A model generated the notes under the pieces. That model did not search any database and was not told the origin of the DNA. It saw nothing but the letters and a program-made list of their open reading frames with translations. From a virus: a stretch of 64,000 nucleotides of DNA. The DNA lies in IMG/VR virus record IMGVR_UViG_3300027804_000039, positions 1 through 64,000 of that record, one strand, 5' to 3'. Positions 37,153 through 60,011 of the stretch are shown here, in pieces. The stretch's first letter is position 1, and each line of letters begins with the position of its first letter. The translations under genes and the position numbers were made by a program.

Positions 37153-37620
37153 TTATACGTACCAAATTTCTTTGAAGCCTTCATCTTCGGTTGGTTCTTG
37201 CCAACCGTCGATCATTTGATCCACAACGTATTGTGGAATCACCTTACCAGGACGATTAGCCAATCTGCGATCCAATTCTGCTCTGTTAGGAGTGCGGAAT
37301 ACAATAGCAATATGTTCGTATCTTGGCAAAGTATTAAACTTGCGAGCTCGACTTGCAACGGTTGTGCTAGTCTGATCCCAAATCAAATCTAAGTTATTTG
37401 CTTCACAAATCTTTGCTTGGTTAACCATTAACTTAACAGCGATTGGCATATAGTCGTCAAATACTTCAGAATAGGTCTTACCTTGTTCTTTAGCATAAGC
37501 TTCTACAAACGAATCTGTACAAACTACAGGCATGTCCTTTGCCCAATCCTGGTTAGAAACCCAAGTGCTCTTGCCTGCGGCAGGAACTCCAATTAATTGA
37601 TAACATTTTGGCATTACCAA
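37153..37620 (-). CDS. P-loop kinase (AAA_33, polynucleotide-kinase-like)
   Basis: GVPAAGKS, D at the PNK acid position, WDQTS, R...R lid. Confidence 0.75.
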   Translation of the reverse strand: MVMPKCYQLIGVPAAGKSTWVSNQDWAKDMPVVCTDSFVEAYAKEQGKTYSEVFDDYMPIAVKLMVNQAKICEANNLDLIWDQTSTTVASRARKFNTLPRYEHIAIVFRTPNRAELDRRLANRPGKVIPQYVVDQMIDGWQEPTEDEGFKEIWYV

Positions 37621-37805
37621 GTCTCCACACCTGAAATATCTACTCTAACTTTAGCAGGACGATCGTTGATATCCATGTCCATAGTAAGTGTCAGGATACT
37701 ACCAATGCCGCTAGAATTATCTGATTTTAGTTCGTAAGATCTAGCATCGTCGAACTCGTTCATGACTGCTAGAATCTTCTCAACTTCTTGTTTAGTAATA
37801 TACAT
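37614..37805 (-). CDS. hypothetical protein
   Basis: 63 aa, operonic. Confidence 0.5.
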   Translation of the reverse strand: MYITKQEVEKILAVMNEFDDARSYELKSDNSSGIGSILTLTMDMDINDRPAKVRVDISGVETW

Positions 37806-37909
37806 TATGCTTTCCTATTCAAAATAAAACCCTTAGAATAGATTAAGAATGCCTTACCGCTTCTAATCATTTGTTTGAAATAATATTCACGATAAGACAT
37901 TCTTGTTCC

Positions 37910-38518
37910 TTACATTGTAGGACCGTTGCCGTTCCTAAAACCCACATTACCACCTTCTGCTTCAATTCGCTTTAACACATCTTCAAATAAGATAGGTGCA
38001 AAGTCTGGTGTTTGTTCTACGCAAACGCAATGGTAGCGTGGATCAATTTCGTCACCGTATAACACTTCGCCGGTCTTAGCATCAACTCCGCGGGCCTTAC
38101 GCACTCGATTTGCGTGTAAGTGTCCGTGAATGTTAACACCAAAACGTCCTAAGCTATCTGCGTGTACAGGAATATGACTTAAGATCATTCCGTTCATAAC
38201 ATGGTATGCCCGTAATTCTCTAAAGTATTGTCTGTACTCGTCATCTCTAAAGATGTCGTGGTTACCGCGAATTAAGACCTTGTCGCCGTTTAAGCGTCTT
38301 AAAGTTCCTAACGCCTTACGGTTAATAACAACGTCACCTAAGTGGTAGACTTTATCTGTGGGCTTGACTCTTTCGTTCCAAGCCTTAACCATGGCTTCGT
38401 CCATTTCGTCCGGGTCATCCCACGGACGTAACTTTGTAAAGCCATCGCTACGTGTGAAGCGGCAAACACCTGTGTGACCAAAGTGCGTGTCGCTGACTAA
38501 AAATACACTAGGCATCAT
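37910..38518 (-). CDS. calcineurin-like phosphoesterase
   Basis: SDTHFGH, LGDV, GNHD, SHIP, HGHLH. Confidence 0.85.
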   Translation of the reverse strand: MMPSVFLVSDTHFGHTGVCRFTRSDGFTKLRPWDDPDEMDEAMVKAWNERVKPTDKVYHLGDVVINRKALGTLRRLNGDKVLIRGNHDIFRDDEYRQYFRELRAYHVMNGMILSHIPVHADSLGRFGVNIHGHLHANRVRKARGVDAKTGEVLYGDEIDPRYHCVCVEQTPDFAPILFEDVLKRIEAEGGNVGFRNGNGPTM

Positions 38519-38529
38519 GCCCTCCTTTC

Positions 38530-38997
38530 TTAAAAATCATTTCTAAAAGCTCGCCAATCATCTATGTTTGGCGTTTCATCTGCATCATAAGTCCAACCCA
38601 ATGCTTTCATCATACGGTGCTTGACTAGTAAGTTAGGGCTACGAAATCTTTCTGTATCTTGAAATCCCATCATAACTCCTACTTCGCAGACAGCACCGCT
38701 ACGACAAATGCCAGCAAAGCAATGAACAATAACGTCCATGTGATTGTCTAGTGCATGTTGGAGCAAACGAACAAGCTCGTTGGCTTGCTCTTGGCTGCAC
38801 TTCATTGCTTCTTCTAACACTTCGTCTTTTTCTTCTACGTCAAGAAATTCAAAACGATGTACTTCTTTGAATTGATGCTTTGGTGTTGGGAACCAACTTG
38901 CTGGGTCAGCAATTTGGATCAACATTGAATTTTCTTTTACAGCAACATGGAATCCTTTTGGAATATCATCTGCTGCACAATTTTGAATCCACGGCAT
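38530..38997 (-). CDS. CX5R (PTP/dual-specificity-like) phosphatase
   Basis: VHCFAGICRS. Confidence 0.8.
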   Translation of the reverse strand: MPWIQNCAADDIPKGFHVAVKENSMLIQIADPASWFPTPKHQFKEVHRFEFLDVEEKDEVLEEAMKCSQEQANELVRLLQHALDNHMDVIVHCFAGICRSGAVCEVGVMMGFQDTERFRSPNLLVKHRMMKALGWTYDADETPNIDDWRAFRNDF

Positions 38998-39547
38998 TTT
39001 CTTTTTTCCTTTTTCTATATGTTTCGTTGTTACAATAAGGCCAAATTGCAGGAATTACCGCTTCTTCAATTTCACTTATCTGTTTGGCAGTTAAGTGGTC
39101 CAAACTCCAAACTAGAACTTCCAATGTATCTACATCAACTTTATGCTTTACAGGAAAGTCTAGCACTCCGGGTGCAACAAGTTTCTTACCAATCTTAACA
39201 TAGTGACTGGGAATTTCTGTTACACCTTCAATTATATACTTACAAACACCTTCTTTCCAACCTTCTGGGAACATCCATTTTGGTTCTACTTTTTCAACGG
39301 GTGTACTGTACAATGTGGCCAAATCAACATCCAATTTAGGACGATGTGTTTGGTGACGATTAATTACAGTATTTGTTGCCGCTTTACCAAAATAGAAATT
39401 CACGTCAGGATAGATGTAGTATAAACCACGATGGTTTCCTACTTCTGCTCTGTTAATTGCGCCTTCGGTAGTGCTATAGGGTTCAACCCATGCATGACCT
39501 AACTGCTCAAATACTTCACGAATTTTGGCTAAGTGTTTACTTTTCAT
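38966..39547 (-). CDS. GIY-YIG-like hypothetical protein
   Basis: GLYYIY...FYFGKA...R..H...E...N pattern. Confidence 0.45.
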   Translation of the reverse strand: MKSKHLAKIREVFEQLGHAWVEPYSTTEGAINRAEVGNHRGLYYIYPDVNFYFGKAATNTVINRHQTHRPKLDVDLATLYSTPVEKVEPKWMFPEGWKEGVCKYIIEGVTEIPSHYVKIGKKLVAPGVLDFPVKHKVDVDTLEVLVWSLDHLTAKQISEIEEAVIPAIWPYCNNETYRKRKKENAVDSKLCSR

Positions 39548-39642: not shown

Positions 39643-41049
39643 TTAGATATCGTAGCGTGGGACCATTACAGTCTTAAGCATGATACCTTCTGGAGTGAAT
39701 TGATCCAAATCAGCTGAAAGCAAGGCCTTCATGATGCTTGGGCTAAATCCACTTACCAGTGCCGCACCACTCTTGTCTGCCTTTACAGGCACGTTACCAG
39801 AACTGTTTAGGTTCCAGAACACAATTTGTGGAACAGTATAACCTGCATCTGCGAACTTGCGTTCAATCATTTGCATTGCTGTGTCGTCGAAACGAGCACA
39901 TTGGTTAAACTGCATGTCGCTCAAGATAAGCAACATCTTTGGCATATCGCTTTCTGGGACGTTACCCTTGACAGCAACACTAAGGATCTTGTCCATAGCC
40001 TTGTGCAAGTCGGTACTCATTTCCCAGTTACTACGTGACATTTGGTCAACCTTTTGAACGATGTTACCCTTTAGAGTAACAAGTTCTGGCTTGCTTGAGA
40101 AGGTCAAGAATGTGTCCTTGAACGCACCCTTGTTCTTGTCTGCTAGGTACAAACCTAAACCAACTGCAACGTCCAAGCAACGAACAGACGAACCTGGAAC
40201 AGGTGTGGTCATAGAACCACTTACGTCGACTAGAGGTAGGATACTTGCGTCACCTACATAGTTAGGCAGAGCGTCCCATTGTGCGATGACATGGTCGGTT
40301 TCTGTCTTGTCCAGCTTGGTGTAGCTGTGTGCGATGCCCTTAAGGACATCGTGTGGGAAGATTGCATCGGCGTTAACCTTTACAGTCTTATCCCCTGCCA
40401 CCAACTTGGCCACATACTCTGCAAATGCAGGTGTGTGACGGTTGAATGCCTTCTTGTAGTTGCGAGCAGCTACAGAAGGAACATGTGAGAAGTTAATGTT
40501 GTCCCAGTCGTTGGCACACATTTGTGTTTCAACAACTGTAGTGAGAGCAACAAGACTCTTACGATATTGCTTAGGAGTCATTCCGAAGAATGCTCGTACT
40601 TCAGCCGCAATCTTACCCTTACGTGGAGTCCACTTAGCGGCAAGACCGTTCTTCGCACGAAGGGCATCGCCCAACATGGTATAAGCGGCTGACTTTAGGA
40701 CCGGACTTTGGAAGACAAAGATATCATCCCAGCGGCCTACTTCAGGCACCTTCTTTAGCAAAGCCAAAGCGGCGTCTGGATCGCGTTGTTCTAGATGAAC
40801 TAGAATATCGCGGAACAGTTGACGTTCACCTGCACCGCCACGGACATCACGTGCCCATTGTGCAATGCGAAGTGCTACATCAGAATTCTCGACATACGCG
40901 GCAGTAAATGCCTTAGTGATGTCCTTACCACGGCTTGCGCCGATGTTGTAAAACAGGTCAACTGTAGCCTTAGCTGTTGACTTACGTGCCTTCATACCGT
41001 TTGCGGTACGGGCTTCTTGGTTTGCTACTGCTGTTACAAATGCGTTCAT
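39643..41049 (-). CDS. Ro60/Rsr-like TROVE + vWA protein (DUF2828-type)
   Basis: RDVRGGAGER, GRWDD, LAAKW.PR, vWA MIDAS DVSGSM, TFS, ILSDMQF, VFWNL. Confidence 0.85.
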   Translation of the reverse strand: MNAFVTAVANQEARTANGMKARKSTAKATVDLFYNIGASRGKDITKAFTAAYVENSDVALRIAQWARDVRGGAGERQLFRDILVHLEQRDPDAALALLKKVPEVGRWDDIFVFQSPVLKSAAYTMLGDALRAKNGLAAKWTPRKGKIAAEVRAFFGMTPKQYRKSLVALTTVVETQMCANDWDNINFSHVPSVAARNYKKAFNRHTPAFAEYVAKLVAGDKTVKVNADAIFPHDVLKGIAHSYTKLDKTETDHVIAQWDALPNYVGDASILPLVDVSGSMTTPVPGSSVRCLDVAVGLGLYLADKNKGAFKDTFLTFSSKPELVTLKGNIVQKVDQMSRSNWEMSTDLHKAMDKILSVAVKGNVPESDMPKMLLILSDMQFNQCARFDDTAMQMIERKFADAGYTVPQIVFWNLNSSGNVPVKADKSGAALVSGFSPSIMKALLSADLDQFTPEGIMLKTVMVPRYDI

Positions 41050-41062
41050 GTGTGTTTCCTTT

Positions 41063-41119
41063 CAGAATGTATTTTGTTTTCGATATGCTTGAAAATTTAA
41101 GGTTGCTGTTAACATTCTA
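41063..41119 (-). ncRNA. Y-like RNA element Y1 (in 5' UTR of the Ro60-like gene)
   Basis: AGAAUGU-UAA-CAGCAA ... ACAUUCUG terminal stem. Confidence 0.6.
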
Positions 41120-41128
41120 TGTCTCTAG

Positions 41129-41381
41129 CAGGATGAGCGGAACGGTTTTTATTTTCTGCTTGACCCCATCCCCTGTATATCGGTTCAGTTCCTCAAGCCT
41201 ATTATGTAAGTTCTGTACATAAACATATAGGTCTTTCCCTAGTCGTTAGTTCCGTAAGCGTCTGTATTGCTACAGATAGGGCACCTTCAATGGATTTCTC
41301 CTCCAGTGTTCCAAGCCTTGCGAGCCACCGTCTACTACATTAAGTGCAGTCAGTATAGTTTAAATTGCTGAAATCATCCTA
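41129..41381 (-). ncRNA. Y-like RNA Y2 (long, ~250 nt)
   Basis: AGGAUGA-UUU-CAGCAA ... UCAUCCUG terminal stem. Confidence 0.65.
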
Positions 41382-41389
41382 GAAATCAA

Positions 41390-41511
41390 CAGATTAGTTT
41401 TGTGCCCACTCTTTTACATGTTTGAGCTACATGTTTGATAGGCTGTGAAGTTATCTCTGCCCATCGTTTGATACGGGTATTAGCCGTGAATGATTTGCTG
41501 TAACTAATCTA
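41390..41511 (-). ncRNA. Y-like RNA Y3
   Basis: AGAUUAGUU-A-CAGCAA ... AACUAAUCUG terminal stem. Confidence 0.65.
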
Positions 41512-42740: not shown

Positions 42741-42815
42741 TGGTACCTGGACACGGTTTCGAACCGCGGACCTTCGCCGTGTAAAGGCGTTGCTCTACCC
42801 CTGAGCTATCCAGGC
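42741..42815 (-). tRNA. tRNA-Val(TAC)
   Basis: Cloverleaf, loop TTTACAC, encoded CCA. Confidence 0.9.
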
Positions 42816-42816
42816 A

Positions 42817-43047
42817 TTATTTAATTTTTCGAATATACTCTTTTCCAATTTTGCCTTCTTCAAATTCTAGAAGTGCTGTAACTGGAGTATGTCTGTGTTC
42901 AAAACGTTCGCTTGAACTTTGTTGTCTTTTAATTTCTCTTGCACGGGCTGCGGCCATTAGTACTAGTTCAAAGCGATTGCCGCCTGCATTTTCTACGCAC
43001 AAGTCCATGTCAATATTTGCGCTACGTTCACTCATAGATAACTCCAA
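42817..43047 (-). CDS. rpoZ: RNA polymerase omega subunit-like protein
   Basis: NRFELVLMAAARAREI...PVTALLEFEEGKI. Confidence 0.85.
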   Translation of the reverse strand: MELSMSERSANIDMDLCVENAGGNRFELVLMAAARAREIKRQQSSSERFEHRHTPVTALLEFEEGKIGKEYIRKIK

Positions 43048-43053
43048 AAATAA

Positions 43054-43082
43054 ATTGTAACATACTTATCTATAAATGTCAA
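43054..43082 (-). promoter_or_regulatory. sigma70-type promoter
   Basis: TTGACA-17-TACAAT upstream of rpoZ. Confidence 0.75.
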
Positions 43083-43086
43083 CATC

Positions 43087-43161
43087 TGGCCTCGCCAACA
43101 GGAATCGAACCTGTATTTAATTCTTAGGAGGAACTCGTTCTATCCATTGAACTATAGCGAG
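43087..43161 (-). tRNA. tRNA-Arg(CCT)
   Basis: Loop CTCCTAA, CCA. Confidence 0.9.
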
Positions 43162-43166
43162 CTGTT

Positions 43167-43265
43167 TGGTGCCTCTGGCAGGACTCGAACCTGCACACTC
43201 AGGCTTATCTGGCCTGTGCTTTGGCGAGGTATAAGCTCGCTTCTTTACCATTAAGCTACAGAGGC
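43167..43265 (-). tRNA. tRNA-Ile(TAT) with long variable arm
   Basis: Stem GCGAG/CTCGC, loop CTTATAC, ~29-nt variable region containing a CAGGC/GCCTG stem. Confidence 0.8.
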
Positions 43266-43270
43266 ATGAT

Positions 43271-43344
43271 TGGTTGCGGGTCCCGGAATCGAACCAGGAT
43301 CTAGAGCTTATGAGACTCTTGAGTTACCGTTTCTCTAACCCGCG
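43271..43344 (-). tRNA. tRNA-Met(CAT), initiator-like
   Basis: Loop CTCATAA; C1xA72 mismatch. Confidence 0.8.
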
Positions 43345-43352
43345 ATTGAAAT

Positions 43353-43429
<77 letters not shown>

Positions 43430-43436
43430 ATTAAAC

Positions 43437-43509
43437 TGGAGCGGGTAGTCGGATTCGAACCGGCTTCATTAGCTTGGAAGGCTAAGTCCTCTCCCAGGAG
43501 AATACCCGC
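43437..43509 (-). tRNA. tRNA-Gly(TCC)
   Basis: Loop CTTCCAA, U73. Confidence 0.88.
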
Positions 43510-43513
43510 ATAA

Positions 43514-43603
43514 TTTATGTAAACACACTCCGCACTTTTCGCAACGGTGGTGTGCAGTCCTTCCAACTTAGAACTATGTCTAAGCAAAGTGTGTTTACAT
43601 AAA
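43514..43603 (-). ncRNA. unassigned structured RNA
   Basis: Perfect 16-bp terminal inverted repeat enclosing small hairpins. Confidence 0.45.
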
Positions 43604-43812
43604 GTGTCTAGCTACTCTCACCACAAGAGCCCTAAACTGGGTGGCCTACCCCGTCGACGTACTTTTCCATTTAGACAGGTTAGCGTCCCTGCCTTTGTGA
43701 TTTCTTAAGTCGCCCATGTAAGCGGGCCTTACGGTAGATCCAATGCACCGTGTCTTTTATGGTACAGACAATTGACCCCCGTTTACTAACGGCTACGGGA
43801 TGCCGGGTTATT

Positions 43813-43887
43813 TGGTGCTGGTTGTCGGATTTGAACTGACGACCTACTGCTTACAAGGCAGTTGCTCTACCCCTGAGCTAAACCAGC
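43813..43887 (-). tRNA. tRNA-Thr(TGT)
   Basis: Loop CTTGTAA. Confidence 0.92.
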
Positions 43888-43893
43888 GTAAAA

Positions 43894-44052
43894 TTATTTA
43901 ACTCTAGACTCAAGTGTTCTAATACGATTTAGAATTTTACCCTTGTCTTTAGCACGACTAGTTTTTTCTAACATATCTTTCAACTGCGTAATGCTCAATG
44001 GTCCTAAACGTGTTTTACCTGTTTTAGTTTTCATTGGATCTGCGTGTGACAT
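43894..44052 (-). CDS. small basic hypothetical protein (52 aa)
   Basis: GAGG SD; MSHADPMKTKTGKTRLGPL... Confidence 0.5.
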   Translation of the reverse strand: MSHADPMKTKTGKTRLGPLSITQLKDMLEKTSRAKDKGKILNRIRTLESRVK

Positions 44053-44069
44053 AATTTCCTCTTTTTGTT

Positions 44070-44145
44070 TGGTGGAGGTAAACGGGATCGAACCGATGAC
44101 CTTTAGCTTGCAAAGCTACTGCTCTCCCAGCTGAGCTATACCCCC
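44070..44145 (-). tRNA. tRNA-Ala(TGC)
   Basis: Loop TTTGCAA, G3-U70. Confidence 0.92.
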
Positions 44146-44147
44146 AA

Positions 44148-44333
44148 TTAATCTGTTGTATCACCTTCTCCGTCCAAATCATAATATTCGTTTTTCATTA
44201 TAACTTGTTCGTCGAATTTCTCTGCGTCTGTCTTTTTATCTTTTTTAAAGATGTTATCGTAGTTATCACGATATGCATTAGTAACGCCTTTCGTTTGAAT
44301 TGCATCTCCTGTGATATCATTTTTTGCTACCAT
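44148..44333 (-). CDS. hypothetical phage protein
   Basis: MVAKNDITGDAIQTK; start trimmed to avoid tRNA-Asn. Confidence 0.55.
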   Translation of the reverse strand: MVAKNDITGDAIQTKGVTNAYRDNYDNIFKKDKKTDAEKFDEQVIMKNEYYDLDGEGDTTD

Positions 44334-44351
44334 CTTACTTCTCCGAATAAT

Positions 44352-44428
44352 TGGCTCCCCGAGCTGGGCTCGAACCAGCGACACCTTGATTAACAGTCAA
44401 GTGCTTCTACCAACTGAGCTATCAGGGA
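44352..44428 (-). tRNA. tRNA-Asn(GTT)
   Basis: Loop CTGTTAA, G73. Confidence 0.92.
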
Positions 44429-44439
44429 ACAGAAATTAT

Positions 44440-44628
44440 TTATTCACTGGTAGGAGTACCAGTTGTAAATCGTTCTTTCTTACTTGTCTTGGGAACAATG
44501 CTTGCAGAATGTTCTGCTTCGATGAACATTCTCTTCCAACCATTTCTATATTCATTAGTTCCACCCATTAGAGCAATCATGCGTTTTGCAGTCTTACTCA
44601 GTCTAAATGATGCAGTAGTCTTTGCCAT
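44440..44628 (-). CDS. hypothetical protein
   Basis: 62 aa with AAGGA SD. Confidence 0.55.
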   Translation of the reverse strand: MAKTTASFRLSKTAKRMIALMGGTNEYRNGWKRMFIEAEHSASIVPKTSKKERFTTGTPTSE

Positions 44629-44645
44629 ACTTTTTCCTTTTAAAT

Positions 44646-44740
44646 TGGCAGTGAGTAAGGGATTCGAACCCTTGATCCCCGTTTTTGCAGGAATGCCTTC
44701 TTAGCAGGAAGGTGCCTTCGACCAGCTCGGCCAACTCACT
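44646..44740 (-). tRNA. tRNA-Ser(GCT)
   Basis: Loop CTGCTAA, long V arm. Confidence 0.92.
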
Positions 44741-44747
44741 ATTATTC

Positions 44748-44832
44748 TGGTACGACTGGCCGGAATCGAACCGGCACGCCTTTCGGCGAGAGATTTTAAG
44801 TCTCTTGTGTCTACCTATTTCACCACAGTCGC
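44748..44832 (-). tRNA. tRNA-Leu(TAA)
   Basis: Loop CTTAAAA, V arm. Confidence 0.92.
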
Positions 44833-44840
44833 ATTACAAA

Positions 44841-45041
44841 TTAAATTCTACGCTTCTTCCAGTCGTATGTAAAGCCGTTTGGCAATACACCTTCTACAAT
44901 TTCGTCAGCACCAAAGATGCCAACTAGCTCAAACTCTTTGCTCTTAATAGTTACATACTCATTCATTACTTTGGCTGTTTTCATAGCCTCGTCTAGAGTC
45001 ATAACATTAAAAGTTATATCTTTTCCTTTTACTTCATACAT
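44841..45041 (-). CDS. hypothetical phage protein
   Basis: MYEVKGK...YDWKKRRI; start trimmed to avoid tRNA-Trp. Confidence 0.55.
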   Translation of the reverse strand: MYEVKGKDITFNVMTLDEAMKTAKVMNEYVTIKSKEFELVGIFGADEIVEGVLPNGFTYDWKKRRI

Positions 45042-45092
45042 ATTGTCGATTTCCTTTTCTTTTCCACACATCGCGACAACGACATTATTGAT

Positions 45093-45166
45093 TGGCATCC
45101 CGCCAGGGACTCGAACCCCGACCAACAGTTTTGGAGACTGGTATGCTGCCATTACACTAGCGAGAT
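45093..45166 (-). tRNA. tRNA-Trp(CCA)
   Basis: Loop CTCCAAA, G73. Confidence 0.9.
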
Positions 45167-45173
45167 ATAAACT

Positions 45174-45250
45174 TGGCGACCTGTACCGGGCTCGAACCGG
45201 TGACCCCCGCCGTGACAGGGCGGTGCGCTGACCAACTGCGCTAACAGGCC
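45174..45250 (-). tRNA. tRNA-Asp(GTC)
   Basis: Loop CTGTCAC. Confidence 0.92.
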
Positions 45251-45255
45251 AATAT

Positions 45256-45347
45256 TGGTGGAAGCGGTGAGATTCGAACTCACGGACCCTGTTAAGGATC
45301 GTCGGTTTTCAAGACCGGTGCAATAAACCAGACTCTGCCACACTTCC
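45256..45347 (-). tRNA. tRNA-Ser(TGA)
   Basis: Loop CTTGAAA, long V arm. Confidence 0.9.
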
Positions 45348-45352
45348 ATTAT

Positions 45353-45435
45353 TGGTGCCCCAGGACGGACTCGAACCGTCACGCTCGCGCACTGGCTTCT
45401 AAGACCAGCGTGTCTACCAATTTCACCACCGGGGC
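45353..45435 (-). tRNA. tRNA-Leu(TAG)
   Basis: Loop CTTAGAA. Confidence 0.92.
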
Positions 45436-45442
45436 ATAATTT

Positions 45443-45585
45443 CCATTTAGTAATAGCACAGTTTACTATTCTCACTCTACCCAATGTTGCTCTGCTACGC
45501 AGAAACAATTACTAGTATCATGGGCCCCGATTTGAACAAGGTTAGCCGTGTACATTGGCCTACGAGCTGTGCTATTACTAAATGG
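45443..45585 (-). ncRNA. unassigned structured RNA
   Basis: Perfect 19-bp terminal inverted repeat; 3 bp of it overlap the tRNA-Glu CCA. Confidence 0.45.
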
Positions 45586-45658
45586 TACTCGATAGGGGAA
45601 TCGAACCCCTCTTCCCACCGTGAAAGGGTGGTGTCCTAGACCGATAGACGAATCGAGC
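45583..45658 (-). tRNA. tRNA-Glu(TTC)
   Basis: Loop CTTTCAC. Confidence 0.92.
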
Positions 45659-45719
45659 AAATTAACTTTTGAATTTTTAACGAACGATTTTAGTCAGTTG
45701 TTTATCTAACTAAGTCTCT

Positions 45720-45748
45720 ATTATATAGCCTCTGCACACTCTTGTCAA
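45720..45748 (-). promoter_or_regulatory. sigma70-type promoter inside the tRNA array
   Basis: TTGACA-17-TATAAT. Confidence 0.8.
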
Positions 45749-45768
45749 TAATAAAGTGGCATTTTGGT

Positions 45769-45843
45769 TGGCCGGGCTTGCAGGAATCGAACCCACACCG
45801 CTTGTTTCGAAGACAAGCATGATATCCATTTCACCAAAGCCCG
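45769..45843 (-). tRNA. tRNA-Arg(TCG)
   Basis: Loop CTTCGAA. Confidence 0.85.
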
Positions 45844-45855
45844 AACGTATATTTA

Positions 45856-45930
45856 TGGCACCGCGAGTTGGACTCGAACCAACATCTTACGCTTTAGAAG
45901 AGCGTTGCCTATCCTTTAGACTATCGCGGT
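45856..45930 (-). tRNA. tRNA-Arg(TCT)
   Basis: Loop CTTCTAA. Confidence 0.9.
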
Positions 45931-45931
45931 A

Positions 45932-46008
45932 TGGTGCTCTTGAAGAGATTCGAACTCTTACTGTCAGCGACCTCAACGCTGTGCGTCTACCAATTGCGCC
46001 ACAAGAGC
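45932..46008 (-). tRNA. tRNA-Leu(GAG) with short variable loop
   Basis: Loop TTGAGGT; 5-nt variable region. Confidence 0.8.
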
Positions 46009-46009
46009 A

Positions 46010-46083
46010 TGGTGCTCTAGCCAAGAATCGAACTTGAAATACATTCTTACCAAGAATGCGTTATGCCATTTAACTACAAGAGC
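46010..46083 (-). tRNA. tRNA-Thr(GGT)
   Basis: Loop TTGGTAA. Confidence 0.88.
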
Positions 46084-46091
46084 AAATAAAT

Positions 46092-46194
46092 CGGGATGAG
46101 GTGCCTAAGACCGGGACTCGAACCCACGGCACACCCCCAAGCGGGCCGGCCTCGCGAGAATGGAGCGAGTAAGTTGTTTGCTGTAATCATCCCT
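46092..46194 (-). ncRNA. Y-like RNA Y4
   Basis: GGGAUGA-UUA-CAGCAA ... UCAUCCCG; internal T-loop-like GGGUUCGAGUCCC. Confidence 0.65.
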
Positions 46195-46198
46195 AAAC

Positions 46199-46318
46199 TG
46201 GTGGAGCCCCGTGGATTCGAACCACGATCACGTCCTTATGCATGGAATTTGTAAATTGCTGACTGTATCCTTGTCAGGATAACCTTTTTTACGTATGCTA
46301 CCATTACACCAGAGCTCC
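46199..46318 (-). ncRNA. tRNA/Y-RNA chimera Y5
   Basis: tRNA acceptor, D and T arms with CCA; anticodon loop replaced by AUCCUG-ACA-AGGAUACAGUCAGCAA. Confidence 0.7.
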
Positions 46319-46327
46319 AAAATAAAA

Positions 46328-46444
46328 CAGGATAGAATTTAACATAGTGCTACCGTTACACCAAACCTTTCGGCTGCGGAGTCGAACCGCTCCCTTACTT
46401 TTCAAGAGTAGTAGTTGTTATTAAATTTTGCTGTTACTATCCTT
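46328..46444 (-). ncRNA. YrlA-like RNA Y6
   Basis: Terminal stem plus CAGCAA; internal order T arm (GCGGUUCGACUCCGC), closed acceptor-like hairpin, D loop (UGGUGUAACGGUAGC). Confidence 0.75.
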
Positions 46445-46448
46445 AAAC

Positions 46449-46530
46449 TGGTACCCCTCCCCGGACTCGAACCGGGAGAAACTAACACTCCTTTTGAGAG
46501 AGCTGCCTTTACCAATTTGGCCAGAGGGGC
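46449..46530 (-). tRNA. tRNA-Leu(CAA)
   Basis: Loop CTCAAAA. Confidence 0.9.
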
Positions 46531-46540
46531 ATAAACTTGT

Positions 46541-46615
46541 TGGTAGTTCCTACTGGGATCGAACCAGTGACCCACACCATGTCAAGGTGTTGCGCTACCG
46601 CTACGCTAAGGAACT
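46541..46615 (-). tRNA. tRNA-Val(GAC)
   Basis: Loop TTGACAT. Confidence 0.9.
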
Positions 46616-46813
46616 ATTGTTTGAACTTTTCTTTGACACGTTCTAATGCCTCTTTACGCATTAAATAAGAACGCTGTTCATTTATTTTATGAACATAGAT
46701 GTATTCGACACCGTCGATTATCTCAACTCTACGAGTGTCTTCACATATAAATTTATCGTTGTTCATGCGATTTTTAAATGTTACAGGTTTCATAACACTC
46801 TCCTTGAATAAAA

Positions 46814-46928
46814 CGGGATACTATCGTTTTGACGAATGCTCTACCTAATGAGCTAAACTGGCATGAAGCCAACTGTTGGACTCGAACCAACTACCTATCG
46901 TTTGGATAGATTTGCTGTGAGTATCCCT
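46814..46928 (-). ncRNA. YrlA-like RNA Y7
   Basis: GGGAUAC-UCA-CAGCAA ... GUAUCCCG; T arm GUUGGUUCGAGUCCAAC, acceptor-like hairpin, D arm GCUCAUUAGGUAGAGC. Confidence 0.75.
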
Positions 46929-46933
46929 AAACT

Positions 46934-47008
46934 TGGAGCAGGATATCGGGTTCGAACCGATGACATTCTCGTTGGCAACGAGACATTCTACCACTGAATT
47001 AATCCTGC
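46934..47008 (-). tRNA. tRNA-Gly(GCC)
   Basis: Loop TTGCCAA, U73. Confidence 0.92.
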
Positions 47009-47260
47009 ATTGTCTAAAGAAAAAGAGCTCACAAAGTTTTGGTTTGCCGAAGCTGAGGCGACCTGATGTTACCGCACCACTTTATTTGTCTCGCCTAACA
47101 TGGAGCGATTCAATCTGTCAACGGACTCGCGCAGTACCACTATCCGCACATGTTCAGATCAGTTGTGATTTTTATAAAACCTTTAAGCCAGCCCTTCCGG
47201 AGCCATCTATCGTCCTTGCGGAACAACTATATCGCCTTGAGCACTTTTACTTTAGACAAT
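47009..47260 (-). ncRNA. unassigned ~250-nt structured RNA
   Basis: ~20-bp interrupted terminal helix (47009-47031 with 47238-47260). Confidence 0.45.
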
Positions 47261-47319
47261 TTATTTATAAATGCCAGGTTGTTCACCGCACAACCATGGC
47301 AAAGCGGGGGTCTGTTCTT

Positions 47320-47395
47320 TGGGGTGCTCTATGAGGATCGAACTCATACTCTCAAGGTCACAACATGATGTGCAGTCCACTACACTAAGAGCACC
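47320..47395 (-). tRNA. tRNA-His(GTG)
   Basis: Loop TTGTGAC; G-1:C73. Confidence 0.88.
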
Positions 47396-47402
47396 ATAGA
47401 AT

Positions 47403-47478
47403 TGGTAGTAACGGTCGGACTCGAACCGACGATAAACACCGTATGAAGGTGGTGCATTAGCCACTATGCTACGTTACC
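47403..47478 (-). tRNA. tRNA with CAT anticodon (elongator Met or Ile2)
   Basis: Loop TTCATAC. Confidence 0.85.
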
Positions 47479-47483
47479 ATAAA

Positions 47484-47699
47484 GGATGACAACTAGATTC
47501 TTCCACCACATACATTGGAAGCATTATCCGCAAATTATGCCGGCTGCGGTTATGATAGTCAAGCTCTTTTACAGATAACTTGTTTTCTCTTAGGGTACAT
47601 AAGTAATAGTGCTACTTGTTTGCTACTAGGATAATTAGTCCCAACTCACAAGAATTTCGAGGCTCTTGCTTTCACACATCTCACACCTAATTGTCATTC
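47484..47699 (-). ncRNA. unassigned ~215-nt structured RNA
   Basis: 13-bp terminal helix GAAUGACAAUUAG/CUAGUUGUCAUCC with wobble and mismatch positions. Confidence 0.4.
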
Positions 47700-47703
47700 G
47701 TTA

Positions 47704-47778
47704 TGGTAGGGGCACAGAGAATCGAACTCTGATTAATAGGTTAAAAGCCTACTACTTTAGCCGTTAAGTTATACCCCC
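47704..47778 (-). tRNA. tRNA-Lys(TTT)
   Basis: Loop CTTTTAA. Confidence 0.9.
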
Positions 47779-47781
47779 ATA

Positions 47782-47857
47782 TGGTCCCTCCAGACGGATT
47801 CGAACCGTCACCTCATCGGGTAAGAGCCGAGTATGCTACCAGTAACACCTCGAAGGG
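47782..47857 (-). tRNA. tRNA-Lys(CTT)
   Basis: Loop CTCTTAC. Confidence 0.85.
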
Positions 47858-47962
47858 ATGATCCGTAATCATTTGATTTTACGTGCCATCCGGACCATAC
47901 GGGGATCGCGGATGACACTAACGTTTACCTGAACGTTTCATGTCATTCTCCTTAAAAAACAA

Positions 47963-47991
47963 ATTATATATTCATTTCAAATTCTTGTCAA
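47963..47991 (-). promoter_or_regulatory. sigma70-type promoter inside the tRNA array
   Basis: TTGACA-17-TATAAT. Confidence 0.8.
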
Positions 47992-48059
47992 TGAACATAA
48001 TCAGTACTACGAGTAAAAGTAAAACAGCCACCGCCCCATGATTGTTCTCCTTAAAAAAA

Positions 48060-48123
48060 CAGGATGTATTTTTACGGTTTAGATTAAAAGTCTAATGTAT
48101 AAATTTTTGCTGTTAACATCCTT
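48060..48123 (-). ncRNA. minimal Y-like RNA Y8
   Basis: AGGAUGU-UAA-CAGCAA ... ACAUCCUG. Confidence 0.6.
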
Positions 48124-48128
48124 AAACT

Positions 48129-48204
48129 TGGTGCCGCCTCGTGGGATCGAACCACGTTCCGACGCTCTTCAGGCGCCTGCTATGACCACATCAGCTAAAG
48201 CGGC
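48129..48204 (-). tRNA. tRNA-Phe(GAA)
   Basis: Loop CTGAAGA. Confidence 0.88.
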
Positions 48205-48365
48205 AAATAGATTGGGTGCCTAACTATCCTCCTGGGAAGACTCGCTAGATTGTCTCGAATAGTCAAGTTTAACATACCGGCTTCAGTCATACTGTAGTGT
48301 CACCACAGTTAACCCCACTGTGGCTAGACTGGCAGGGACTCTAAACTATCGTCTATCCCAAAACT

Positions 48366-48440
48366 TGGTGCTCCGTGACGGACTCGAACCGCCATCGCCG
48401 GACTACAAAACCGGAATTCTAGCCTTTGAAATAACAGAGC
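48366..48440 (-). tRNA. atypical tRNA, probably Thr(TGT)
   Basis: Loop TTTGTAG with U31xU39 mismatch; anticodon register slightly ambiguous. Confidence 0.65.
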
Positions 48441-48445
48441 AAAAT

Positions 48446-48523
48446 TGGTCTCCATGGTAGGATTCGAACCTACAGCCTCCTGACTCCAGATCAGGCCGTC
48501 TACCAGATTGACATTACACAGAG
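48446..48523 (-). tRNA. atypical tRNA-Pro(TGG)
   Basis: Loop TCTGGAG (C33 instead of U33). Confidence 0.75.
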
Positions 48524-48529
48524 ATAACT

Positions 48530-48604
48530 TGGTGGAGACCGAGGGAATCGAACCCTTCTAGACATCTTCCTTGCAAGGGAAGACCGTAGCCCACTACTGC
48601 CCCC
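48530..48604 (-). tRNA. atypical tRNA-Ala(TGC)
   Basis: Loop CTTGCAA, G3-U70, 4-nt D loop. Confidence 0.75.
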
Positions 48605-48614
48605 AAATTCTTTT

Positions 48615-48692
48615 TGGCACCCCAGGAAGGACTCGAACCTCCGACTCCCACGTTCGTAGCGTAGTACTCTTATTCCTCTGAGTTACTGGGGT
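48615..48692 (-). tRNA. tRNA-Arg(ACG)
   Basis: Loop CTACGAA. Confidence 0.88.
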
Positions 48693-48698
48693 ATAAAT

Positions 48699-48776
48699 TG
48701 GAGTAGGGAGTCGGATTCGAACCGACGGCTTTAGAGTTTTGCAGACTCTTGCATTGGGCCTCTCTGCCATCCCTAC
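48699..48776 (-). tRNA. tRNA-Cys(GCA)
   Basis: Loop CTGCAAA, U73. Confidence 0.92.
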
Positions 48777-48783
48777 ATAATAT

Positions 48784-48858
48784 TGGCGCCGTAGACGAGA
48801 ATCGAACTCGCCTTAGTCGGATAGACAATCCGTTGCCCTCCCAGAGAACTACTACGGC
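48784..48858 (-). tRNA. atypical tRNA-Asp(GTC)
   Basis: Loop TTGTCTA (U37), G73. Confidence 0.78.
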
Positions 48859-48862
48859 ATGT

Positions 48863-48936
48863 TGGTATCGCGTACGGGGATCGAACCCGCCTGATCAGGT
48901 TGAAAGCCTGAGGACCTCCCAGAAGTCTAACGCGAT
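48863..48936 (-). tRNA. tRNA-Glu(TTC), second copy
   Basis: Loop CTTTCAA. Confidence 0.85.
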
Positions 48937-48945
48937 ATAAAAAAA

Positions 48946-49005
48946 CAGGATACATTTTCTTTTTTCACCAATTGAAAGTTGAATAAAGTTTGCTGTGAGT
49001 ATCCT
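48946..49005 (-). ncRNA. minimal Y-like RNA Y9
   Basis: AGGAUAC-UCA-CAGCAA ... GUAUCCUG. Confidence 0.6.
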
Positions 49006-49011
49006 TAAACT

Positions 49012-49085
49012 TGGCAGGGGCATTAGGGATCGAACCTAAACTAACAGAGTCAAAGTCTGTTGTGCTACCATTACACAATGCCCCA
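49012..49085 (-). tRNA. tRNA-Gln(TTG)
   Basis: Loop CTTTGAC. Confidence 0.9.
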
Positions 49086-49091
49086 ACAAAT

Positions 49092-49169
49092 TGGCTGTGC
49101 GTCTAGGAATCGAACCCAGCTCATTCTTCGTTAACAGCGAAGCGCCTACACCTTGCTTGCTCACGCACA
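49092..49169 (-). tRNA. tRNA-Asn(GTT), second copy
   Basis: Loop CTGTTAA, G73, divergent D arm. Confidence 0.85.
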
Positions 49170-49176
49170 ATAAATT

Positions 49177-49250
49177 TGGTTCCCAGAACAAGAATCGAAC
49201 TTGTAATGACCGGTTATCAGCCGATTGTTATACCATTTAACTATCCGGGA
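49177..49250 (-). tRNA. tRNA-Ile(GAT)
   Basis: Loop CTGATAA. Confidence 0.9.
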
Positions 49251-58840: not shown

Positions 58841-58916
58841 TGGTGCGCTGAGTGGGAATCGAACCCACGCATCTGGAGTTTTAGAGGCTCCCGCTGTTCC
58901 ATTTAGCTATCAGCGC
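58841..58916 (-). tRNA. tRNA with CTA anticodon (amber suppressor candidate)
   Basis: GGAGC-CTCTAAA-ACTCC, acceptor GCGCTGA/TCAGCGC-ACCA. Confidence 0.7.
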
Positions 58917-59428: not shown

Positions 59429-59546
59429 ACTAAATTTTTCCTTATGTGTTTCACTGTGTGTGATGTCTTTCTATATATCTACGAAAAACACACAGCTTAG
59501 AGTATTATATATTCACGTAAACCATGAGAGCAAATTTTTTTACTCC

Positions 59547-59574
59547 AAAAAAATAGCACCCGAAGGTGCTATTT
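59547..59574 (-). terminator. terminator after the tmRNA coding piece
   Basis: AAATAGCACC-TTCG-GGTGCTATTT plus T run. Confidence 0.75.
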
Positions 59575-59579
59575 GTTAT

Positions 59580-59925: not shown

Positions 59926-59927
59926 CT

Positions 59928-60011
59928 TTACTTACTATTGCGTCTTCTAGTAGCTTTAGCTCTAGAAGCTGCTTTCGTACGTGCCGCACGGGCTCTTACT
60001 AATCTTCCCAT
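59928..60011 (-). CDS. 27-aa Arg/Ala/Lys-rich peptide
   Basis: GGAG SD, MGRLVRARAARTKAASRAKATRRRNSK*. Confidence 0.55.
   Translation of the reverse strand: MGRLVRARAARTKAASRAKATRRRNSK

What the first reader, a model, noticed from the sequence alone, without database searches (positions are those of the whole stretch)
46199..46318. CCA-ended tRNA whose anticodon loop is replaced by a permuted Y-RNA stem
Seen: a normal acceptor (GGAGCUC/GGGCUCC-ACCA), D arm and T arm. Between the ACGU/ACGU anticodon stem halves lies ~55 nt holding the Y motif in reversed order (AUCCUG, then AGGAUACAGUCAGCAA). It is the circular permutation of its neighbours Y6 and Y7. Inference: an aminoacylatable or EF-Tu-binding Y RNA, or an evolutionary intermediate between tRNA and YrlA.
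Basis: partly seen in the sequence, partly recalled or inferred. Interest (0 to 1): 0.7.

Follow-up and report, generated by a model that had tools for sequence, protein, structure and literature searches.

The report
tRNA-shaped partner RNA of phage Ro60-like protein
This phage gene makes an RNA with the shape and CCA end of a tRNA, but where the anticodon loop should be it carries the conserved "handle" that marks the small RNAs encoded beside a Ro60-like protein, so it is most likely a non-decoding partner RNA of that protein, in a layout not described in the papers I searched.

Summary
Window 46199-46318 (minus strand) encodes a 120-nt RNA with a 7-bp acceptor stem, canonical D and T arms and an encoded A-CCA end. 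In place of an anticodon loop it has a hairpin capped by a GNNA loop, followed by the motif CAGCAA. Eight linear RNAs in the window carry the same module, here closed at the other end.

It belongs to a family. A covariance model built from 24 homologues, without the window sequence, finds it at 120.6 bits (E 2.6e-31); ordinary tRNAs reach at most 40 bits. Across 34 members, 98.5% of cells pair and 17 of 22 pairs show compensatory changes. Members occur in many uncultured phages, the Vibrio phage KVP40 group and a cyanophage.

The Y-RNA reading is partly supported. The handle lacks the YrlA Ro-binding motif, and no Pfam TROVE gene is present. However, a DUF2828/DUF7788 gene 5 kb downstream on the same strand folds as Ro60. 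In 80 loci holding homologues of that gene, handles occur 274 times on the gene strand and 14 times on the other.

Aminoacylation, EF-Tu binding and expression are untested. The intron reading is disfavoured.

This scan had already noted the same family on other DNA. Verdict: a new variant of a known kind (Ro60/Y-RNA particles).

The parts
46199..46318 (-). The candidate: a 120-nt tRNA-shaped RNA with the CAGCAA handle in place of the anticodon loop.
   Evidence: Sequence. Leave-one-out model R2 gives 120.6 bits, E 2.6e-31. Homologues are aligned in A1, A3 and A4.
46312..46318 (-). Acceptor stem, 5' strand (RNA 1-7). It pairs with 46203-46209.
   Evidence: All 7 pairs show compensatory changes across 34 members, and 100% of cells are paired.
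46295..46309 (-). D arm (RNA 10-24): a 4-bp stem and a 7-nt loop with the GG pair. It is nearly identical to the D arm of the neighbour at 46319-46448.
   Evidence: 3 of 4 pairs covary.
46266..46281 (-). Handle helix (RNA 38-43 paired with 48-53), closed by the GNNA-type loop at RNA 44-47. The linear family members have their 5' and 3' ends at the position of this loop.
   Evidence: 4 of 6 pairs covary once the KVP40 and cyanophage members are included. The loop letters vary as G-N-N-A.
46256..46261 (-). The CAGCAA motif (RNA 58-63). It is unpaired and sits 3-4 nt after the handle helix.
   Evidence: Invariant in A1. It reads C-A/U/G-GCAA in the KVP40 and cyanophage members.
46233..46246 (-). 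Second small hairpin (RNA about 73-86), between the handle and the T arm.
   Evidence: Constrained folds. One homologue (L167) replaces the pyrimidine and purine strands by U and A runs. The boundaries are uncertain.
46230..46233 (-). 3' half of the short 'anticodon stem' (RNA 86-89). It pairs with 46291-46294 (RNA 25-28).
   Evidence: Read by hand from alignment A1. Three of the pairs change together among subgroups, but the pairing is absent in one subgroup. Weak support.
46210..46226 (-). T arm (RNA 93-109): a 5-bp stem and a UUCGAAU loop.
   Evidence: 3 of 5 pairs covary.
46199..46209 (-). Acceptor 3' strand (RNA 110-116), discriminator A117 and the encoded CCA (118-120). The next handle RNA starts directly after the CCA.
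   Evidence: In A1, 19 of 21 members end in N-CCA.
46319..46448 (-). Linear handle RNA with YrlA topology: handle, T arm, acceptor stem closed by a loop, D arm, closing strand.
46084..46198 (-). Linear handle RNA with a T-arm-like hairpin but no D arm.
46811..46933 (-). Linear handle RNA with YrlA topology.
   Evidence: Weak full-length Rfam YrlA match: 27.3 bits against a threshold of 69. Also.
48937..49011 (-). Short linear handle RNA with no tRNA-like part.
   Evidence: Weak match to Dictyostelium Class I RNA (24 bits).
48060..48128 (-). Short linear handle RNA.
41063..41510 (-). Three linear handle RNAs (about 120, 250 and 55 nt) directly upstream of the Ro60-like gene. Their handle helices differ in sequence but all pair.
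   Evidence: The same trio sits upstream of the gene in most of the 80 homologous loci.
39643..41049 (-). Gene for a 468-aa Ro60-fold protein (Pfam DUF2828 + DUF7788; PHROG 850 'RNA-binding protein'). Proposed binding partner of the handle.
   Evidence: Pfam E 7e-28 and 3e-52. PHROG 475 bits. AlphaFold2 model with pLDDT 91. The top 13 Foldseek PDB hits are all Ro60/TROVE, over the full length.

Best explanation
The gene encodes a non-decoding, tRNA-shaped RNA that is one of nine 'handle' RNAs of this phage.

The handle is a 6-7-bp helix of free sequence, ended by a conserved A/G pair of letters and followed by 3-4 nt and the unpaired motif CAGCAA. I infer that it is the binding site of the phage's Ro60-like ring protein (DUF2828/DUF7788, 39643-41049), in the way the conserved stem of a Y RNA binds Ro60.

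In the eight linear RNAs the 5' and 3' ends lie in the handle. In two of them a tRNA-like module sits inside with its acceptor stem closed, as in YrlA. In this RNA the handle is closed by a tetraloop and the acceptor stem is open. The RNA therefore has the order of a real tRNA and a free N-CCA 3' end.

Shown here:
- the structure;
- membership in a conserved family;
- linkage of the handle to the Ro60-like gene;
- the Ro60 fold of the protein.

Inferred:
- The protein binds the handle.
- The tRNA body lets RNase P and the tRNA 3'-end enzymes cut the RNA, and thereby its two handle-RNA neighbours, out of the array transcript.
- The tRNA fold and CCA end protect the RNA from exonucleases.
- The body docks the particle onto tRNA-binding factors.

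The likely biological setting is RNA repair, RNA surveillance or counter-defence.
For: Structure and family membership:
- Leave-one-out model R2 gives 120.6 bits against at most 40 bits for the window's tRNAs.
- Across 34 members, 98.5% of cells are paired, against 72% in shuffles and 40-52% in slid controls. 17 of 22 pairs show compensatory changes.
- The elbow letters are conserved: U8, A14, GG, the T loop, and A15 with a near-invariant U before the T stem.
- The rotated candidate aligns end to end with the neighbour at 46319-46448.

Handle as a shared module:
- Nine copies lie on the minus strand of the window and none on the plus strand.
- The helix sequence differs between copies, and between phage groups, while CAGCAA stays.

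Partner protein:
- DUF2828 + DUF7788.
- The model has pLDDT 91 and pTM 0.89.
- The 13 best PDB matches are all Ro60/TROVE chains, aligned over about 500-570 columns with TM up to 0.64.
- The best profile-to-PDB sequence hits are Ro60 at the MIDAS motif.

Linkage:
- In 80 loci chosen by the protein alone, strict handles occur 274 times on the gene strand and 14 times on the other. 78 of 80 loci have at least one, mostly just upstream of the gene.
- 4 of 5 records that hold tRNA-shaped members hold the gene, including both complete genomes.
- In cyanophage BUCT-ZZ01 two tRNA-shaped members follow the gene directly.

Precedents in papers:
- Ro60 genes with adjacent tRNA-like Y RNAs. M. smegmatis YrlA is cut by RNase P in its acceptor loop and receives CCA (PMC4201824).
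- Phage phiLo Ro60 binds phage Y-like RNAs and host PNPase (PMC12135203).
- The Ro60-like gp130 of the Felix O1-type phage Bas63, encoded upstream of its tRNA genes, scored as a counter of the Ppl defence (preprint 10.1101/2024.10.10.617714). I did not align gp130 with the window protein. An E. coli phage of the same genus encodes a DUF2828 homologue upstream of its tRNA array, with four handles in the array.
Against: - No binding, expression or processing data exist.
- The handle does not contain the Ro-binding motif of YrlA or of animal Y RNAs. Pfam TROVE does not match the protein. The protein could therefore recognise RNA differently, or could bind something else.
- The central part of the RNA (short stem, second hairpin) folds ambiguously and differently between subgroups.
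- Only one of the nine handle RNAs in this phage has this layout, and the E. coli Felixounavirus examined has none. The layout is therefore not essential to the system.
- Genomic linkage alone does not prove a physical complex.
Confidence: 0.65

Rival explanations
1. It is charged with an amino acid and acts through EF-Tu or the ribosome. This is the first reader's stronger reading: a Y-like RNA that is also a working acceptor, somewhat like the tRNA part of tmRNA.
For: It has a full 7-bp acceptor stem, a discriminator and an encoded CCA, with an intact elbow. One subgroup of homologues has G1:C72, G2:C71, G3:U70, G4:C69 and A73. From established knowledge, this is the alanine identity set shared by tRNA-Ala and tmRNA. 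Another subgroup has a possible G-1 with C73, which is histidine-like. Chen et al. raised possible aminoacylation of the CCA-tailed M. smegmatis YrlA.
Against: The window copy has A3:U70, not G3:U70. From established knowledge, that change abolishes charging of E. coli tRNA-Ala. Acceptor stems and discriminators vary freely across the family (up to six pair types per position). This fits selection for pairing only, not for one synthetase identity. No anticodon is present for the many synthetases that need one.
Confidence: 0.1
2. The tRNA shape works independently of the Ro60-like protein. It serves either as a processing signal in the array, or as a decoy or inhibitor for a host enzyme that attacks or binds tRNAs. 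The handle is bound by some other factor or serves only as a stable cap.
For: It sits between two linear handle RNAs, exactly where real tRNAs flank the others. RNase P and 3'-end cuts on it would release both neighbours. Phage tRNA arrays are widely linked to evasion of tRNA-targeting defences (general knowledge). The Bas63 Ro60-like protein scored as a counter-defence gene.
Against: An ordinary tRNA would serve as punctuation. The handle, with CAGCAA invariant, is kept in all 34 members, which argues that it is used. Without an anticodon loop the RNA cannot be a decoy for anticodon nucleases.
Confidence: 0.15
3. It is a tRNA gene interrupted by an intron or a mobile insert that is removed to give a normal decoding tRNA.
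For: tRNAscan-type annotation of the KVP40-group phage phi-pp2 lists the homologues as 113-123-nt tRNA-Phe, -Asn, -Val or 'tRNA-OTHER'. In one of them the insert follows an apparently complete 7-nt loop and 5-bp stem.
Against: With introns allowed, ARAGORN gives unrelated anticodons and intron positions for close homologues and finds nothing in 12 of 34. The window copy has only a 3-4-bp stem and no 7-nt loop. The same insert is a stand-alone, conserved module in the linear RNAs. At about 55 nt it is far below group I intron size, and I know of no bacterial or phage splicing system for such inserts (general knowledge).
Confidence: 0.04
4. It is a non-functional by-product of recombination between two adjacent handle RNA genes.
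For: A deletion spanning from the middle of one tandem copy to the middle of the next would produce this order of parts.
Against: The layout is conserved, with compensatory changes, in at least 34 copies from distant phage groups. The acceptor stem and CCA are kept.
Confidence: 0.01

Closest known systems
YrlA-type bacterial and phage Y RNAs bound by Ro60/Rsr (Rfam RF02553; Chen et al. 2014, PMC4201824)
   Same: Both are small RNAs made of a protein-binding stem plus a tRNA-like module with D and T arms. Both are encoded on the same strand near the gene of a Ro60-fold protein. The two linear neighbours have the same order of parts as YrlA, and one gets a weak full-length Rfam match.
   Different: The binding motif differs: a covarying helix plus CAGCAA here, GNCGAAN0-1G in YrlA. 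The candidate has the opposite connectivity: the ends lie in an open acceptor stem with an encoded CCA, and the binding stem is closed by a loop. The candidate gets no Rfam match. The partner protein is DUF2828/DUF7788, which Pfam TROVE misses.
RNase P-cleaved, CCA-tailed form of Mycobacterium smegmatis YrlA (PMC4201824, section 8)
   Same: It is a Ro60-bound Y RNA whose tRNA-like module has an open 7-bp acceptor stem and a CCA end.
   Different: That form consists of two RNA pieces made by cleavage, with CA added afterwards. Here a single chain is encoded in that form, CCA included.
Deinococcus radiodurans Yrn1
   Same: It is a Y RNA whose tRNA-like part has the normal tRNA order of D and T elements.
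   Different: In Yrn1 the Ro-binding stem takes the acceptor position and the anticodon-like arm is closed. Here it is the reverse.
Dictyostelium Class I RNAs (Rfam RF01414; Kjellin et al. 2021, PMC7919456)
   Same: Both have a short terminal stem of free sequence, a conserved motif ending in CAGCAA next to its 5' strand, and a 3' end reading CUG. A short linear handle RNA of this window matches the model over its full length (24 bits).
   Different: The score is below the family threshold (41.5). The paper reports the family only in dictyostelids, with an RRM protein as binder. The candidate itself is the permuted form and is not matched.
tRNA, and phage T4 stable RNAs C and D in the T4 tRNA cluster
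   Same: The candidate is encoded in a phage tRNA array, with a tRNA-like T arm and a CCA-type end. The function of T4 rnaC and rnaD is also unknown.
   Different: The candidate has no anticodon loop and is not called as a tRNA. T4 rnaC and rnaD show no clear handle and score at most 19.5 bits with model R1.

Membership tests
CAGCAA-handle RNAs linked to DUF2828 Ro60-like genes (not in Rfam, nor in the papers I searched) | A helix of 6-7 bp of free sequence with conserved end letters, then 3-4 nt, then unpaired C-A/U-GCAA. | tested here: met
   RNA 38-63 of the candidate. The helix covaries.
CAGCAA-handle RNAs linked to DUF2828 Ro60-like genes (not in Rfam, nor in the papers I searched) | Encoded on the same strand as, and near, a DUF2828/DUF7788 gene. 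| tested here: met
   The gene lies at 39643-41049, 5.1 kb downstream. The linkage was quantified in 80 loci and in 4 of 5 records.
CAGCAA-handle RNAs linked to DUF2828 Ro60-like genes (not in Rfam, nor in the papers I searched) | Physical binding of the handle by the protein. | not testable with these tools
   Needs a pull-down or a gel shift.
tRNA-shaped (handle-in-anticodon-arm) subfamily | Full-length match to a covariance model built from other members. | tested here: met
   R2, built without the window sequence, gives 120.6 bits, E 2.6e-31.
YrlA (RF02553) | Score at or above the Rfam gathering threshold (69 bits). | tested here: not met
   No YrlA match to the candidate at E up to 10. 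The neighbour at 46811-46928 reaches 27.3 bits.
YrlA (RF02553) | The GNCGAAN0-1G motif near the 5' end, the proposed Ro60 contact. | tested here: not met
   The motif is defined in PMC4201824. It is absent from the candidate and from the other handle RNAs.
YrlA (RF02553) | The order binding stem, T arm, closed acceptor-like stem, D arm, binding stem. | tested here: not met
   The candidate has the tRNA order with an open acceptor stem.
YrlA (RF02553) | Encoded near a Ro60 orthologue on the same strand. | tested here: inconclusive
   The record has no Pfam TROVE match. A Ro60-fold protein is encoded 5.1 kb downstream on the same strand.
tRNA (RF00005) | A 7-bp acceptor stem, D and T arms with conserved elbow letters, and an N-CCA end. 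| tested here: met
tRNA (RF00005) | A 5-bp anticodon stem with a 7-nt loop and a defined anticodon. | tested here: not met
   Not called by ARAGORN or by the Rfam tRNA model. The stem has 3-4 bp only.
Intron-containing tRNA | Removing the insert leaves a consistent anticodon arm across homologues. | tested here: not met
   ARAGORN with introns allowed gives unrelated anticodons and positions, and finds nothing in 12 of 34.
Ro60/TROVE proteins (for the partner gene) | A HEAT-repeat ring plus a vWA domain with a MIDAS motif. | tested here: met
   The 13 best Foldseek PDB hits are Ro60/TROVE over the full length. The letters D275, S277, S279, T346 and D378, which fit a DxSxS..T..D MIDAS pattern, are invariant. 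Pfam TROVE itself does not match.
Dictyostelium Class I RNA (RF01414) | Score at or above the threshold (41.5 bits). | tested here: not met
   24 bits for the linear RNA at 48946-49004. No match for the candidate.

The most novel reading that the evidence does not exclude
The tRNA-ordered form is the original state of this RNA family. In this reading, handle RNAs arose when the binding site of a Ro60-like protein was inserted into the anticodon arm of a tRNA, and the YrlA-like closed-acceptor forms are later circular permutations. The open, CCA-ended form is still used as an acceptor: it is charged, or at least handled by CCA-adding enzyme, synthetases or EF-Tu. That would bring the Ro60-like ring to the tRNA or translation machinery during infection, for example to counter a host defence that targets tRNAs.
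Probability: 0.12. Interest if true: 0.85.

Novelty: new variant of a known kind. Interest (0 to 1): 0.62.

Why it matters
Ro60/Y-RNA particles are known from animals to bacteria, but what the tRNA-like part of bacterial Y RNAs does is an open question.

Here a divergent and very widespread phage branch is seen. The protein occurs in 709 isolated phage records and in 6337 sequence clusters. This branch uses a different RNA handle and offers the tRNA mimic in two connectivities within one genome. One of them has a real, encoded acceptor end.

That makes direct tests possible:
- Is a Y-like RNA processed, CCA-repaired or charged like a tRNA?
- Does the Ro60-like protein ride on it?

Members occur in cultivable phages: the KVP40 group has five, and a Synechococcus phage has two. 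A Felix O1-type phage with linear handles was also examined, and a Ro60-like protein of that phage type has been reported as a counter-defence gene. The experiments are therefore feasible.

There is also a practical point. These genes are currently annotated as odd tRNAs ('tRNA-OTHER', or 113-123-nt tRNA-Phe, -Asn and -Val in phi-pp2) or not annotated at all. This inflates or distorts phage tRNA counts.

Tried and rejected
- Thermodynamic folding of the candidate and its neighbours alone gave no significant z-scores. I did not use it as evidence.
- Rfam at gathering and at permissive thresholds found no family for the candidate.
- megablast against isolated phages found only tRNA-Ser similarity. 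Only the sensitive blastn search found the KVP40 and cyanophage homologues.
- Pfam TROVE in the window's own record gave no hit.
- A single-sequence search of the protein against PDB sequences found nothing useful. The profile gave only weak Ro60 hits. The fold search was needed.
- T4 rnaC and rnaD were checked as possible homologues. They show no clear handle and score low, so I rejected them.
- I looked for the parent tRNA of the candidate's body among the window's 38 tRNAs. None was convincingly closest: Trp, Phe, Lys, Gln and Arg types are all similar. I make no ancestry claim.
- Hand reading suggested a consistent 3-bp 'anticodon stem' covarying among subgroups, but one subgroup lacks it and constrained folds prefer other pairings. 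I kept it only as weakly supported.
- The apical loop read as a 7-nt anticodon loop is one nucleotide short and would break two conserved pairs. Rejected.
- Two review papers on bacterial Y RNAs (PMC10870794, PMC6047535) were not held.
- A literature search for DUF2828 returned only incidental plant and tardigrade mentions.

Full report
**What is in the sequence.**
The window is the first 64 kb of a 191-kb uncultured virus record, about half complete. Its minus strand carries an array of 38 tRNA genes (42741-49250) and a permuted tmRNA gene.

The finding lies in a 365-nt gap of that array. Read on the minus strand, 46318-46199 has these parts:
- a 7-bp acceptor stem;
- U8;
- a D arm with the GG loop;
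- a T arm with a UUCGAAU loop;
- discriminator A and an encoded CCA.

Between the D and T arms there is no anticodon arm. Instead, in order:
- an A-rich linker;
- a perfect 6-bp hairpin capped by a four-letter loop;
- 3-4 nt and the motif CAGCAA;
- a linker;
- a second small hairpin.

ARAGORN and the Rfam tRNA model do not call it. No ORF above 52 aa overlaps it.

**Relation to the neighbours.**
Eight other minus-strand elements of the window carry the same module with the ends the other way round. Each has a 7-nt strand, 3 nt, CAGCAA, a variable body and the complementary strand followed by G. None lies on the plus strand.

Two of them (46319-46448 and 46811-46933) hold a T arm, an acceptor-like stem closed by a loop and a D arm. 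This is the order of parts of bacterial YrlA. The second gets a weak full-length Rfam YrlA match, 27.3 bits against a threshold of 69.

When the candidate is rotated to start at its module, it aligns end to end with 46319-46448, with a near-identical D arm. The observation of a circular permutation is therefore correct for this neighbour type. The other neighbour (46084-46198) lacks a D arm.

**It is a conserved family.**
- A pattern for the closed module found about 25 distinct copies of the same tRNA-shaped RNA in IMG/VR contigs.
- A sensitive blastn search found it in the Vibrio phage KVP40 group and in Synechococcus phage BUCT-ZZ01.
- In phi-pp2 the five copies are annotated as 113-123-nt 'tRNA-OTHER', tRNA-Phe, tRNA-Asn and tRNA-Val.
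- A covariance model built from 24 homologues without the window sequence finds the candidate at exactly its coordinates with 120.6 bits (E 2.6e-31). The best ordinary tRNA scores 40 bits.
- On 34 members, 98.5% of cells form standard pairs, against 72% in shuffles and 40-52% when partners are slid. 17 of 22 pairs have compensatory changes, including all seven acceptor pairs and four of six handle pairs.
- 19 of 21 members in the first alignment end in N-CCA.
- The loop that closes the handle varies as G-N-N-A. The G and the A are the letters that end the helix in the linear RNAs. The loop therefore looks like a simple cap on the same helix.
- The centre of the RNA is less certain. The short stem covaries among some subgroups but is missing in one, and alternative pairings exist.

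**The partner protein.**
I tested that.
- The ORF at 39643-41049, on the same strand and downstream of the array, matches Pfam DUF2828 (E 7e-28) and DUF7788 (E 3e-52). It also matches PHROG 850 'RNA-binding protein'.
- Pfam TROVE does not match anywhere in the record. Sequence searches against PDB give only weak Ro60 hits at the MIDAS motif.
- An AlphaFold2 model from a 59-sequence alignment (pLDDT 91, pTM 0.89) has Ro60/TROVE structures as its 13 best Foldseek matches. These are from Xenopus, human, Deinococcus and Thermus phage phiLo. They align over the full length, with E down to 1.7e-8 and TM up to 0.64. Generic vWA domains come only after them.
- The protein is thus a Ro60-fold ring with a vWA domain.
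- Three handle RNAs lie directly upstream of its start codon.

**Linkage test.**
I fetched 80 viral loci by the protein alone (66-93% identity). Strict handles occur 274 times on the gene strand and 14 times on the opposite strand. 78 of 80 loci have at least one, typically a trio ending at the ribosome-binding site.
- Five further tRNA-shaped members lie upstream of the gene in these loci.
- Of five records chosen because they hold tRNA-shaped members, four hold the gene, including both complete genomes.
- In the cyanophage two linear handles precede the gene and two tRNA-shaped ones follow it.
- The protein occurs in 709 isolated phage records, some annotated 'Ro-like RNA binding protein'.
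- An E. coli Felix O1-type phage has the gene followed by four linear handle RNAs with yet another helix sequence, but no tRNA-shaped one.

**Comparison with what is known.**
- Chen et al. 2014 (PMC4201824) described YrlA RNAs next to Ro60 genes and their tRNA-like module. They defined the likely Ro contact GNCGAAN0-1G.
- They showed that M. smegmatis YrlA is cut by RNase P in its acceptor loop and gains CCA.
- They noted that YrlA and Deinococcus Yrn1 have different orientations of the tRNA-like part.
- Phage phiLo Ro60 binds two phage Y-like RNAs with a CGAA motif, and host PNPase (PMC12135203).
- A preprint found that the Ro60-like gp130 of phage Bas63, encoded upstream of its tRNA genes, counters the Ppl defence. 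It guessed that some 'tRNA genes' may be Y RNAs.
- None of these papers describes the CAGCAA handle or a single-chain, CCA-ended, tRNA-ordered form, and Rfam has no model for either.
- The handle resembles the stem plus 11-nt motif of Dictyostelium Class I RNAs (PMC7919456). A short linear handle RNA matches that Rfam model at 24 bits, below its threshold of 41.5. I record this as a resemblance only.

**What it most likely does.**
The handle is the part under sequence constraint in every copy and is tied to the Ro60-like gene. I therefore take it as the protein's binding site (inferred).

The tRNA body has all the elements that RNase P, the CCA-adding enzyme and T-loop modifying enzymes recognise. 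It sits between two linear handle RNAs, where real tRNAs flank the others. Its processing would release itself and define the neighbours' ends (inferred from position).

A tRNA fold with a CCA end would also protect the RNA from exonucleases, as proposed for M. smegmatis YrlA. It could dock the particle on tRNA-binding factors.

Downstream genes include a metallophosphoesterase, a phosphatase-like protein and a weak kinase-like ATPase. This fits an RNA end-healing setting, but only loosely.

**Rivals.**
- Charging and EF-Tu binding are possible but unproven. Acceptor identities vary freely. Only one subgroup has the alanine-type G3:U70 with A73, and the window copy has A3:U70.
- The intron reading fails. 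Allowing introns gives unrelated anticodons among close homologues and none in 12 of 34. The 'insert' is also a stand-alone module elsewhere.
- A role independent of the protein cannot be excluded.
- A non-functional rearrangement is excluded by the covariation.

**Limits.**
- There are no expression data.
- Binding is inferred from genomic linkage and from the protein's fold.
- This scan had already noted the same family on other DNA, with similar readings. I treated those notes as leads and re-tested the points I use.

Noticed in passing
window 41129-41380 (-): A ~250-nt handle RNA sits directly upstream of the Ro60-like gene. A similar element, about 225-260 nt, lies upstream of the gene in many homologous loci. 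Its large body is conserved in sequence in many contigs and matches no Rfam family.
   Followed up: partly
window 48946-49004 (-): A short linear handle RNA matches the Rfam model of Dictyostelium Class I RNAs over its full length (24 bits, below the threshold of 41.5). It shares the terminal stem, the motif ending in CAGCAA and the 3' CUG. The published view is that Class I RNAs are confined to dictyostelids.
   Followed up: partly
window 59529-59973 (-): The phage encodes a circularly permuted (two-piece type) tmRNA (Rfam 139.7 bits). The same genome therefore holds permuted versions of two different tRNA-related RNAs.
   Followed up: no
window 43170-43265 (-): A 96-nt tRNA is called by Rfam (59.7 bits) but missed by ARAGORN. 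By eye it has a UAU anticodon loop and a long extra arm, which is unusual for an isoleucine-type tRNA.
   Followed up: no
window 58841-58916 (-): A tRNA with anticodon CUA (amber suppressor type, labelled Pyl by ARAGORN) lies outside the main array.
   Followed up: no
window 43510-43812, 47009-47319, 47479-47703 and 48205-48365 (-): These four long gaps in the tRNA array (161-311 nt) have no ORF-like content, no handle and no Rfam match at E up to 10. The start of the 48205-48365 element recurs after a tRNA-shaped handle RNA in another contig (L175). They are possibly further structured RNAs.
   Followed up: no
window 42816-43086, 43888-44069, 44146-44351, 44429-44645, 44833-45092 and 46616-46810 (-): Small ORFs with ribosome-binding sites are interspersed between the tRNA genes, as in T4-like and T5-like arrays.
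   Followed up: no
L298 (Escherichia phage vB_EcoM_LMP25) 6711-7620: Four unannotated linear handle RNAs lie in the tRNA array just after the DUF2828 gene. Short 'hypothetical protein' CDSs are annotated on the opposite strand over tRNA and handle-RNA genes; these are probably spurious.
   Followed up: partly
window 37153-39547 (-): Downstream of the Ro60-like gene, on the same strand, lie an unassigned 193-aa ORF, a dual-specificity phosphatase-like ORF (weak), a metallophosphoesterase (PHROG 547) and a P-loop ATPase with a weak polynucleotide-kinase match. This may be an RNA end-healing set.
   Followed up: partly
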